From Alphaproteobacteria bacterium (GTDB lineage Bacteria > Pseudomonadota > Alphaproteobacteria > MPNO01 > UBA830): DNA of 64,000 nucleotides. The position numbers were made by a program, and so were the translations under genes. The notes beneath the pieces were generated by a model. The model searched no databases. It was not told the origin of the DNA and saw only the letters and a list, made by a program, of their open reading frames with translations. This document shows positions 30,704-31,571 of the stretch, piece after piece. The stretch is from positions 1,120,001 through 1,184,000 of the forward strand of contig OZ251539.1 of assembly GCA_965243135.1 (NCBI GenBank), written 5' to 3'. How positions within the stretch are numbered: position 1 is the first letter of the stretch; each line of letters begins with the position of its first letter.

Positions 30704-31571
30704 GTGCGCCGTGGAAAGGCGCTTTCTTCTGGTGGGTGCGAATCCCACCCAACAACTGTCGTTCCGGTTGGTAGCGGCCAGGGCGGTTTACGGAGGTAAC
30801 GATGTAGGCTGAAGCACTCTGGACAAAAGGGCGGCGAAGGCCGCTCAGCGAACATGCGGGCCGAAACGAGTAGTGAACATTGAGCAGGCCTCGAAACGGT
30901 CAATGCGGAAGCTGACCCTCCTGAGGTTAGGGGAAAGCCGCCGACGGTCGGGAAGAGAACGACAAGAGCACCGACCGTTTCCGCCGGGGTGTCGGCACGC
31001 ATGGAAGATGAAGGAAGCAGCAACACGGGAAGCCCTGTCGGTGACGTGCACGAGTCAACCGGAACCCCGCGAGGGGCAGGCCGGGCCGGCAGGGTGGCGG
31101 AGAGGCCCGTAGTACCGGAGAAGCCGGGTAACGCCGGCGGAGGAAAGGGGCCTCAGGCGAGGAAGGGCGCCGCAAGGGAGAAGGGCTCGGAGACTGGCTA
31201 TGCCTAACAACCGACTACATGCCAGAGATCCCGGAAGCGTCACATGCAGAAGCGAAGGAACCCGGTCGAGAGGCCGGGGTCGTCGAGGCGTAAACAGGTT
31301 CGGCGACGGGTTGGAAAGCGAGAACAGGCGGAAAATATGGGAGACGGTGCAACTCCCGGGTCTGGAAAACCGGCCGTTTTTGGGAACGCTGACAATCCAT
31401 CCGTGGGCGAGACGCATGATCCTGCTGGAGAGCCGGATGCGGGAAATCCGCACGTCCGGTTCGGAGAGCGGGGACTGGAAACGTGGCCACGGGAGCCGGA
31501 CTGAGGCCCGGAGCGAAAGCGACGGAACATCCACCGGACCCTAAAGCTAACGCGCCAGTCCTCGACTCTAC
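30704..31571 (+). mobile_element. Group II intron without RT ORF (868 nt)
   Basis: 5' GTGCG, 3' AC; DIII 31102-31154; DV 31430-31462 with AGC triad and AC bulge; DVI with bulged A 31565; EBS1 TGAGGT 30922-30927 pairs with IBS1 ACCTCA; boundaries confirmed by the intron-free paralog. Confidence 0.95.

What the first reader, a model, noticed from the sequence alone, without database searches (positions are those of the whole stretch)
30704..31571. Apparently intact group II intron with no RT ORF, splitting an ATPase-nuclease gene
Seen: an 868-nt insertion starting GTGCG and ending AC, with DIII, DV (AGC triad), DVI (bulged A seven nt from the 3' end) and only ~275 nt in DIV, too short for an RT. 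EBS1 TGAGGT (30922-30927, in a hairpin loop) is the exact complement of the exon end ACCTCA. A candidate EBS2 CGGTC (30897-30901) complements exon GACCG. Removing the insert restores an open 507-aa frame. Established: bacterial group II introns normally encode their own RT/maturase; ORF-less ones are uncommon and use a maturase in trans. Inference: both exons are undamaged and the promoter is intact, so splicing probably still occurs. The unspliced RNA would give an ATPase-only protein (stop at 30774), so the PD-(D/E)XK nuclease domain is attached only after splicing. That could act as a splicing-gated switch on a potentially toxic nuclease.
Basis: partly seen in the sequence, partly recalled or inferred. 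Interest (0 to 1): 0.9.

Follow-up and report, generated by a model that had tools for sequence, protein, structure and literature searches.

The report
ORF-less group II intron, orphaned
A real self-splicing-type intron without its own enzyme gene sits in one of about 139 near-identical ATPase-nuclease genes because that spot is its insertion target, and with every helper enzyme gene in the genome broken it looks like a stranded mobile element, not a gene switch.

Summary
Window 30704-31571 is an 868-nt group II intron (Rfam RF02003 77 bits, RF00029 51 bits). It has GUGCG...AC ends, a canonical domain V, a bulged A 7 nt from the 3' end and no RT ORF. Removing it restores a 507-codon AAA-ATPase_like + PDDEXK_9 (DUF1703) gene.

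The regulatory reading is not supported. The genome holds 8 full-length ORF-less copies, one 5'-truncated copy and 5 RT-bearing copies. EBS1 covaries with the 5' exon at five different target types. The host gene is one of 139 paralogs. The intron sits only at junctions reading ACCTCA (7 of 61, against 0 of 78 others). Intron-bearing paralogs are not a clade (AU p 0.00024). This is selfish homing into a multicopy target.

All RT/maturase loci in the assembly are frameshifted or disrupted by insertions, so no cognate maturase is available. Of 16 copies with a domain V region, 15 carry the same shortened domain V lacking the AGC triad. The window copy alone is canonical, as in relatives with intact RTs.

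The intron is therefore structurally the best-preserved copy of a decaying family, but splicing in vivo is unproven and doubtful. No RNA data were available. Novelty: a new member of a known kind.

The parts
29713..30703 (+). Exon 1 of the DUF1703 gene (AAA-ATPase_like domain); ends ...LLFQTGYL plus the first base of a Thr codon
   Evidence: Translations. PF09820 scores E 1.7e-57 at residues 8-199. The Walker A-like RPRRFGKT and the VVLVDEYD motif are read from the translation (my reading).
30690..30694 (+). IBS2 (GACCG), at -14..-10
   Evidence: Complementary to 30897-30901. Pairings of 4 bp at the same loop and exon distance occur in two other copies: genome 1990194 (ACGC/GCGT) and the G001 intron (GTGA/TCAC).
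30698..30703 (+). IBS1 (ACCTCA)
   Evidence: Complementary to EBS1. Present at 61 of 139 paralog junctions, and all 7 occupied or scarred junctions carry it.
30704..31571 (+). ORF-less group II intron, 868 nt
   Evidence: There are 8 full-length copies at 84-100% identity in the genome.
30730..30871 (+). 5' part of domain I matching Rfam group-II-D1D4-4
   Evidence: 77.3 bits over model positions 1-138 of 138. The helices are kept, with compensatory changes in 13 of 78 predicted pairs across 8 copies and relatives.
30897..30901 (+). EBS2 (CGGTC)
30922..30927 (+). EBS1 (TGAGGT) in a hairpin loop
   Evidence: It covaries with the 5' exon at other sites: GGAAAC/GTTTCC, GGAAACT/AGTTTCT, GGAAAC/GTTTTC (one G-U), AGGAGC/GCTCCT and TGAGAT/ATCTCA.
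31073..31198 (+). Remnant of the IEP leader / DIVa region (the only RT-related stretch left)
   Evidence: tblastn with the intact G001 RT ORF matches residues 1-42 at 59.5% identity. The stretch is homologous to the RT-bearing copies up to intron nt 450-560.
31264..31399 (+). Domain IV filler with no counterpart in the RT-bearing copies; it takes the place of about 1.2-1.3 kb of those copies, most of it RT coding sequence
   Evidence: blastn with word size 7 of the mini against 3 RT-bearing copies gives no match for intron nt 561-696.
31430..31462 (+). Domain V, canonical (AGC 31431-33, AC bulge 31452-53, GAAA loop)
   Evidence: RF00029 alignment and fold. It is the only canonical one among 16 DV regions of the genome and matches the relatives with intact RTs.
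31465..31569 (+). Domain VI with a roughly 75-nt internal extension (31479-31554) that includes a CCG-GA-GC-GAAA-GC-GA-CGG hairpin
   Evidence: Fold z-score -3.8. RF00029 matches of the same long span (144-156 nt) occur in 15 of 20 related loci. GC/GC changes to AC/GU in G001 and G003 copies.
31565..31565 (+). Bulged branch-point A, 7 nt from the 3' splice site
31572..32104 (+). Exon 2 (PDDEXK_9 nuclease domain) with its stop codon
   Evidence: PF08011 scores E 3.1e-16. The D...EFK motif is read from the translation (my reading).
30772..30774 (+). Stop codon met if the intron is not removed (exon 1 plus a 23-aa tail)

Best explanation
This is a genuine, structurally complete but non-autonomous group II intron. 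It is an ORF-deleted derivative of an RT/maturase-encoding, endonuclease-less intron lineage (Rfam D1D4-4 type, with an extended domain VI). It reached this gene by base-pairing-guided retrohoming. EBS1/EBS2 recognise ...GACCG-GCT-ACCTCA| in the conserved codons LLFQTGYL|TI of the DUF1703 (AAA-ATPase_like + PDDEXK_9) family, which has about 139 copies in this genome and so offers dozens of identical targets. Its presence is therefore a consequence of selfish target specificity, not of gene regulation.

The family is now decaying. Every RT/maturase gene in the assembly is broken, most copies have lost the catalytic part of domain V, and two have lost EBS1. The window copy is the one copy that still has all known ribozyme elements. 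With no maturase it is most likely immobile and spliced poorly or not at all, which would leave a truncated ATPase-only product from one dispensable paralog.

Shown here: the intron anatomy, the copy family, the target rule, the independent gains and the broken RTs. Inferred: retrohoming as the route of arrival, and the present lack of splicing.
For: Anatomy.

Family: blastn of the genome gives 35 matching segments. They include 8 full-length ORF-less copies, 1 5'-truncated copy, 4 end-to-end RT-bearing copies and 1 RT-bearing copy broken by insertions.

Base-pairing targeting: there are five EBS1 types, each complementary to its own 5' exon.

Target family: there are 139 junctions and 152 PF09820 matches. 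IBS1 ACCTCA occurs at 61 junctions, of which 7 are occupied or scarred; none of the 78 others is (Fisher p 0.0026, paralogs not independent).

Independent gains: intron copies are 97-98% identical, while their exon flanks (450 nt each side) are 90-95% identical, and the window gene's 12 closest paralogs are all intron-less. The fewest changes of intron presence on the exon tree is 6 for 6 carriers. The AU test rejects one clade (p 0.00024). Flanks next to the intron are no more alike among carriers than among 400 random pairs of the 55 junctions that carry the target and no intron, one of them the scar.

No maturase: all 4 GIIM and all 6 RVT_1 matches lie in interrupted frames. An intact 483-aa RT ORF of a same-genus genome (TIGR04416 334 bits; RVT_1 + GIIM only) finds nothing intact in this genome. 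One RT copy carries a 1455-nt segment (a 485-aa ORF) that occurs at least 25 times full-length in the genome, 13 times at 100% identity.

Decay: 15 of 16 DV regions lack the AGC strand. RF00029 gives 51 bits for the window copy, nothing for 4 other copies and 23 bits for a fifth. The EBS1 loop is deleted in 2 of 8 ORF-less copies. 54 perfect targets remain empty.
Against: The window copy has no detectable defect, and both exons are open, so splicing cannot be excluded.

[quoted passage not shown] A maturase-free route is therefore possible.

The assembly is one contig at 98.8% completeness. An RT on an unassembled plasmid or in a collapsed repeat would be missed, and the frameshifts in the RT copies rest on the assembly alone.

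The same DV lesion in two sublineages that otherwise differ next to it (A1..U34 against G1..C34) is not explained by simple decay. The closely similar ORF-less copies that carry it should not have been able to retrohome after acquiring it.

Recombination among paralogs can blur the exon tree.
Confidence: 0.75

Rival explanations
1. The intron is still spliced with a maturase supplied in trans, and splicing gates the attachment of the PD-(D/E)XK nuclease domain to the ATPase, acting as a switch on a potentially toxic nuclease.
For: The ribozyme elements and both exons are intact. The unspliced RNA would end after the ATPase part. Control of host-gene splicing by a related intron's RT is known for the ORF-less dnaN introns of Trichodesmium (introduction of PMC12584367, passage read).
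Against: No intact RT/maturase was found. The gene is one of 139 paralogs, about 105 of them open, and most are never interrupted, so the nuclease is evidently tolerated. Occupancy follows IBS1 and not gene lineage. The other carriers have a dead DV and 3 of 6 have broken exons. The intron DNA was not found in G004, a same-genus genome that has 23 DUF1703 matches.
Confidence: 0.04
2. The window copy splices without any maturase (self-splicing or host-factor-assisted), so this paralog still makes the full-length protein. It would be a second bacterial case of an IEP-independent ORF-less intron.
For: It is the only copy that kept a canonical DV while 15 others lost it. EBS1, EBS2, the branch A and both exons are intact. 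C.te.I1 is a precedent (PMC4424553, passage read).
Against: It keeps the DIVa/leader region to which the IEP would bind (my inference), and it derives from a maturase-dependent type. Insertion is recent (97-98% identity to its sisters), so intact exons need no selection. There is no RNA evidence.
Confidence: 0.15
3. The intron spread among the paralogs by DNA-level gene conversion or homologous recombination between near-identical genes, not by retrohoming.
For: Flanks are 90-95% identical over 900 nt. Sister copies that carry a dead DV sit in non-sister paralogs. DNA-level events do occur here: a microhomology deletion scar, and a 10-kb duplication that carries an intron.
Against: There is no excess identity of the exon flanks next to the intron among carriers (-50..0: 0.90 against a background of 0.925; 0..+50: 0.935 against 0.914). 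Copies outside the gene family sit at sites that match their own EBS1, which shows that the family moves by reverse splicing. Occupancy is restricted to ACCTCA junctions although ACCTGA paralogs are similar.
Confidence: 0.1

Closest known systems
ORF-less group II introns of Thermosynechococcus elongatus (Mohr, Ghanem & Lambowitz 2010, PMC2882425; abstract and outline read)
   Same: Both are multicopy families in one genome. [quoted passage not shown] Target specificity diverges through EBS changes. Other mobile DNA lies nested inside intron copies.
   Different: There, some RTs are active and splice and mobilise the degenerate introns. Here every RT is broken and most ribozymes have lost DV. 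Here the main target is a conserved codon block of a gene family with 139 members.
ORF-less dnaN introns of Trichodesmium erythraeum, spliced by the RT of the RIR intron (as summarised in the introduction of PMC12584367; passage read)
   Same: Both are ORF-less introns inside a protein-coding gene with a related ORF-carrying intron elsewhere in the genome. This is the known form of the 'maturase in trans' idea.
   Different: That host gene is an essential single-copy gene and a working maturase exists. Here the host is a redundant paralog and no working maturase was found.
C.te.I1 of Clostridium tetani (as described in Zimmerly & Semper 2015, PMC4424553; passages read)
   Same: [quoted passage not shown]
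   Different: [quoted passage not shown] The present intron is surrounded by dead relatives and its splicing is untested.
Endonuclease-less bacterial intron lineages (classes C, D, E, F and some CL, per PMC4424553)
   Same: The related intact IEP has RVT_1 + GIIM only and ends 32 residues after the maturase domain match.
   Different: The class was not determined here. AGC rather than CGC in DV, an EBS2 pairing and insertion inside a gene argue against class C (my reading; the class C traits are partly recalled). The roughly 75-nt DVI extension is not a feature I could place in a described class.

Membership tests
Group II intron (ribozyme) | 5' GUGYG and 3' AY boundaries | tested here: met
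   GUGCG at 30704-08 and AC at 31570-71.
Group II intron (ribozyme) | Domain V: a hairpin of about 34 nt with an AGC triad, a 2-nt bulge and a GNRA loop | tested here: met
   RF00029 scores 51.4 bits against a cut-off of 40. The alignment shows GAGCCGGAUGCGG-GAAAU-CCGCACGUCCGGUUC.
Group II intron (ribozyme) | Domain VI with a bulged A 7-8 nt from the 3' splice site | tested here: met
   A31565 is unpaired in the fold and in the Rfam alignment.
Group II intron (ribozyme) | Conserved domain I architecture | tested here: met
   RF02003 scores 77.3 bits over the full model. The consensus fold shows compensatory changes in 13 of 78 pairs.
Group II intron (ribozyme) | EBS1-IBS1 and EBS2-IBS2 pairing with the 5' exon | tested here: met
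   6 bp and 5 bp at this copy. EBS1 covaries across five target types. EBS2 is supported by two further 4-bp cases.
Group II intron (ribozyme) | Catalysed splicing (lariat and ligated exons) | not testable with these tools
   No RNA run was listed. It needs RT-PCR or an in vitro assay.
Mobile (autonomous) group II intron | Intron-encoded RT/maturase in domain IV | tested here: not met
   Pfam finds nothing in the 3 intron ORFs given to it. Only RT residues 1-42 match.
ORF-less intron served in trans | Related ORF-containing introns in the same genome | tested here: met
   There are 5 RT-bearing copies, 88-94% identical in the shared 5' part and 89-90% in the shared 3' part where it is present.
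ORF-less intron served in trans | At least one intact IEP able to act as maturase | tested here: not met
   All RT loci are frameshifted, insertion-disrupted or fragmentary. Caveat: this rests on a single-contig assembly.
Regulatory (splicing-gated) intron | Intron conserved at the site in orthologues, or splicing that depends on conditions | tested here: not met
   For conservation: 54 of 61 identical target junctions are empty, and carriers are not a clade. Condition-dependent splicing is not testable here.
DUF1703 (host gene) | N-terminal AAA-ATPase_like (PF09820) plus C-terminal PDDEXK_9 (PF08011) | tested here: met
   The architecture is as defined in PMC6387759 (passages read).

The most novel reading that the evidence does not exclude
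The window copy is the one live 'master' of the ORF-less family and splices without any maturase. On this reading, the identical 6-nt-shorter domain V seen in 15 of 16 copies, in two sublineages that differ right beside it, is not random decay. It would be a recurrent, mechanism-driven lesion, for example the RT skipping part of the DV stem during cDNA synthesis, so that daughters are dead on arrival.
Probability: 0.06. Interest if true: 0.65.

Novelty: new member of a known kind. Interest (0 to 1): 0.35.

Why it matters
[quoted passage not shown] This genome offers a natural end-stage. It has a family of at least 13 copies whose RTs are all broken, one ribozyme that is still complete, and 54 empty, perfectly matching targets inside a very large DUF1703 gene expansion. 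That expansion has 139 junctions, against 25 paralogs reported as among the largest in PMC6387759.

The case is useful for three questions: whether a bacterial intron can persist by self-splicing after its maturase is lost, how multicopy gene families act as safe harbours for retroelements, and how intron copies are inactivated. It does not support a new regulatory mechanism.

Tried and rejected
1. RNA evidence. The look-up of sequencing runs listed no RNA holder; the 5 runs listed are of unknown kind. Read laying on 4 of them, all contigs, showed a joint 30703->31572 in 4 of 4 runs. Each had one contig and only 21-22 letters on the shorter side. The 54 intron-less paralogs share that junction, so this says nothing about splicing. 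The same call showed loose ends of the shortened-DV type (GCTGGAGGC before 31440). I could not tell from the listed pieces whether any contig covers the canonical DV strand at 31430-31447.

2. 'Permuted domain V'. All copies have GGGAGCCGGAC in the DVI extension, complementary to the DV 3' strand, and this might replace the lost 5' strand. I rejected the idea. The motif is not kept in related introns with intact RTs (L031, L055, L079, L097), no compensatory change was seen, and relatives have a normal DV.

3. EBS3 candidate. G30898 tracks the first base of exon 2 (G with C; A with T at 3 sites). The same base takes part in the EBS2 pairings, so I dropped it.

4. Metagenome scan for the shortened-DV sequence. 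It gave 4 contigs, all from a different intron with a complete DV whose positions 8-9 read GC. This shows that the lesion can be read as a clean loss of AGCCGG from a GC variant. It gave no second occurrence of the lesion.

5. RF00029 over the whole genome returned only the window copy, but only 150 of 366 candidates were scored, so I rely instead.

6. Intron class. Matches to solved RTs (GsI-IIC RT best, E 3.9e-48) and NCBIfam do not assign a class.

7. Promoter scan. It found 0 sites, which is uninformative.

8. Pfam on inserted ORFs. There is no family for the 485-aa ORF and a sub-threshold UPF0236 match for a 479-aa ORF.

Simon et al. 2008 (PMC2525955) is not held, so its content is cited only through PMC4424553. 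Supplements were not opened.

Full report
OBSERVATION. The stretch 30704-31571 is 868 nt, begins GTGCG and ends CTAC. At Rfam's own thresholds it matches group-II-D1D4-4 (30730-30871, 77.3 bits, cut-off 49) and Intron_gpII, which covers domains V and VI (31428-31571, 51.4 bits, cut-off 40). The alignment and a fold place domain V at 31430-31462: GAGCCGGAUGCGG-GAAAU-CCGCACGUCCGGUUC, with the AGC triad at 31431-33 and the AC bulge at 31452-53. Domain VI is 31465-31569, with an unpaired A at 31565, seven bases from the end. EBS1 (30922-27) and EBS2 (30897-30901) are complementary to the exon at 30698-30703 and 30690-94. None of the 3 intron ORFs given to Pfam has a family. An intact RT from a related genome matches only with its first 42 residues, which is the leader/DIVa region. 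Exon 1 (29713-30703) and exon 2 (31572-32101) together give 507 codons, with PF09820 (E 1.7e-57) and PF08011 (E 3.1e-16). Unspliced RNA would stop at 30772-74.

THE INTRON IS ONE OF A FAMILY. The window lies in a single-contig genome of 6.10 Mb with 65% G+C. blastn of the intron against it gives 35 matching segments. There are eight full-length ORF-less copies (790-868 nt, 84-100% identical) and one 5'-truncated copy. Four longer copies (1917-3571 nt) have both ends and an RT region. A fifth RT-bearing copy is broken up by insertions. The rest are fragments. The ORF-less form shares intron nt 1-450/560 and 697-868 with the long form. About 140-250 nt with no counterpart in the long form take the place of about 1.2-1.3 kb, most of it RT coding sequence.

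TARGETING IS BY BASE PAIRING. The copies sit at different kinds of site, and EBS1 changes with the exon. The pairs are TGAGGT/ACCTCA, GGAAAC/GTTTCC, GGAAACT/AGTTTCT, GGAAAC/GTTTTC (one G-U), AGGAGC/GCTCCT and TGAGAT/ATCTCA. EBS2 is supported more weakly, by 4-bp matches at the same loop and exon distance in two other copies. Domain I helices are conserved, with compensatory changes in 13 of 78 predicted pairs.

THE HOST GENE IS ONE OF ABOUT 139. tblastn with the two exons finds 139 places that carry the exon-1 end, and PF09820 matches 152 places in the genome. Same-genus genomes have 23, 9, 1 and 0 matches. The architecture is DUF1703. For that family 25 paralogs in a Cardinium genome were reported as among the largest expansions (PMC6387759, passages read). 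The junction lies in the conserved codons LLFQTGYL|TI. Of the 139 junctions, 61 read ACCTCA and 78 read something else, mostly ACCTGA. Six ACCTCA junctions hold an intron, and a seventh holds a deletion scar that begins GTGCG. None of the 78 others does (Fisher p 0.0026; the paralogs are not independent). That leaves 54 perfect targets empty.

THE INSERTIONS ARE INDEPENDENT OF GENE DESCENT. The window intron is 96.8-98.2% identical to three sisters. The 900 nt of exon flanks of the six carriers are 90-95% identical to each other, and the twelve paralogs closest to the window gene are all intron-less, up to 95.4% identical. On a tree of the 139 flanks, the six carriers need six changes of state. 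An AU test rejects their being one clade (lnL difference 200.9, p 0.00024). The flanks nearest the intron are no more alike among carriers than among 400 random pairs of the 55 junctions that carry the target and no intron, one of them the scar. This speaks against long-tract gene conversion and for precise insertion.

NO MATURASE IS LEFT. The GIIM profile matches four places and RVT_1 matches six, all within this intron family and all in interrupted frames. A same-genus genome (G001) has a related intron with an open 483-aa ORF (TIGR04416 334 bits; RVT_1 + GIIM and no further domain). tblastn with that ORF finds six RT loci in the window's genome. Each is split over frames, disrupted by inserted DNA or a short fragment. 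One insertion is a 1455-nt segment present at least 25 times full-length in the genome, 13 times at 100% identity. Caveats: these are assembly-level statements, and a plasmid or a collapsed repeat could hide an intact copy.

MOST RIBOZYMES ARE DEAD TOO; THE WINDOW COPY IS THE EXCEPTION. Sixteen copies or fragments have a domain V region, and fifteen of them lack the 5' strand with the AGC triad. The ORF-less copies read ...CUGGAG-GC-GCGG... and the RT-bearing copies read ...CCGAA-GC-GCGG..., where the window copy reads ...CUGGAG-AGCCGGAU-GCGG.... Rfam's DV/DVI model gives nothing for four other copies and 23 bits for a fifth. Relatives in other genomes have the canonical strand (AAGCCGGAUGCGG). 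This holds for G001, G003 and G036. In the 80 related loci fetched, my strict pattern for the DV 3' strand matched 35, and all 35 have a canonical 5' strand; the 45 others were not classified, although four printed examples show covarying canonical forms. RF00029 reaches its threshold in 15 of 20 related loci. The window copy therefore keeps the ancestral, functional form, including a G1-C34 pair where relatives have A1-U34. Two ORF-less copies have also lost the EBS1 loop. Half of the carrier genes (3 of 6) have broken exons, against 31 of 133 intron-less paralogs (p 0.16).

WHAT REMAINS UNEXPLAINED. The same lesion occurs in the two sublineages, although they differ immediately to its left (G1 against A1) and 25 nt to its right (C34 against U34). 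A metagenome scan showed that positions 8-9 can read GC in a complete DV of another intron. The lesion can therefore be read as a clean loss of AGCCGG from such a variant. Short-patch conversion between copies, a recurrent event tied to the DV hairpin, and selection all remain open. The idea that a downstream GGGAGCCGGAC replaces the lost strand was tested and rejected.

THE LINEAGE. RTs 75-93% identical to the G001 RT occur, often in many copies, in metagenome-assembled genomes labelled Alphaproteobacteria, Paracoccaceae, Binatia, Nitrospinota, Thermodesulfobacteriota, Longimicrobiales and others. Their DV/DVI matches span 144-156 nt like the window's 144 nt. The roughly 75-nt DVI extension, with its GAAA-capped hairpin, is thus a trait of the lineage and not a defect. 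The class was not determined.

INTERPRETATION. The simplest account is a non-autonomous retroelement that homed into its cognate site in a hugely expanded gene family and is now stranded by the loss of all RTs. [quoted passage not shown] A splicing-gated nuclease switch is not needed to explain anything seen, and it conflicts with the lack of a maturase, the redundancy of the gene and the pattern of occupancy. The neighbours are ordinary genes: a sulfotransferase, RecO and a topoisomerase IV/gyrase A-type subunit. Whether this one intact copy still splices on its own is the open and testable question.

VERDICT. This is a new member of a known kind, of moderate interest. Most of the interest lies in the orphaned but intact ribozyme, the shared DV lesion and the 139-copy target family.

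Noticed in passing
whole genome; in the window also 2960-4489 (-), a second, intron-less paralog: There is an extreme expansion of the DUF1703 (PF09820 + PF08011) family: 139 junction-bearing paralogs and 152 PF09820 matches, many in tandem arrays, with about 105 open. 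Same-genus genomes have 23, 9, 1 and 0 matches. The family splits into ACCTCA (61) and ACCTGA-type (78) junction subfamilies.
   Followed up: partly
L016:1033-1052 (genome about 960832-960851): A paralog reads ...CTACCTCA-GTGCG-CCGGCGAGG.... The first bases of the intron are fused to exon 2. This fits DNA-level loss of an intron between two CGCCG repeats, which leaves a 1-nt frameshift.
   Followed up: partly
genome copies at 4119187, 1934092, 3618447, 2889578, 1924188, 3851437, 5058249, 1914060, 1990194, 2665261, 4047310, 4810502, 2511438, 5693357, 2599421: Fifteen of 16 intron copies share a domain V that is shorter by 6 nt and lacks the AGC triad, in both the RT-bearing and the ORF-less sublineage. 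The cause is unknown.
   Followed up: partly
L031-L110 (named MAG records): The same intron lineage has intact RTs 75-93% identical to the G001 RT, a canonical DV and the long DVI. It occurs in many copies in MAGs labelled as several phyla, which suggests recent horizontal spread. L031 and L033 each show two RF02003 matches about 2.0 kb apart, which look like tandem introns.
   Followed up: partly
L014 (genome 2665261-2668831) and L015 (genome 5953834-5959862): RT-bearing intron copies are themselves targets of other insertions. One is a 1455-nt segment with a 485-aa ORF and no Pfam family, present at least 25 times full-length in the genome (13 copies at 100% identity). In L015 there are further large ORFs, one with a sub-threshold UPF0236 match.
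   Followed up: partly
genome 1914060-1914731 and 1924188-1924980: A 5'-truncated and a full-length ORF-less copy have identical 3' flanks about 10 kb apart, so they lie in a segmental duplication. The full-length one has a foreign, AT-rich 5' flank in place of exon 1.
   Followed up: no
L111 (G003:C1:3051409-3052017): A degenerate fragment in a same-genus genome is about 70% identical and matches intron nt 28-165, 447-555 and 697-737, with ORF-less spacing. This hints that the ORF-less form is older than this species.
   Followed up: partly
window 5075-5145 and 5252-5322 (-): Two nearly identical tRNA genes lie 107 nt apart. A third tRNA is at 49956-50028 (+).
   Followed up: no
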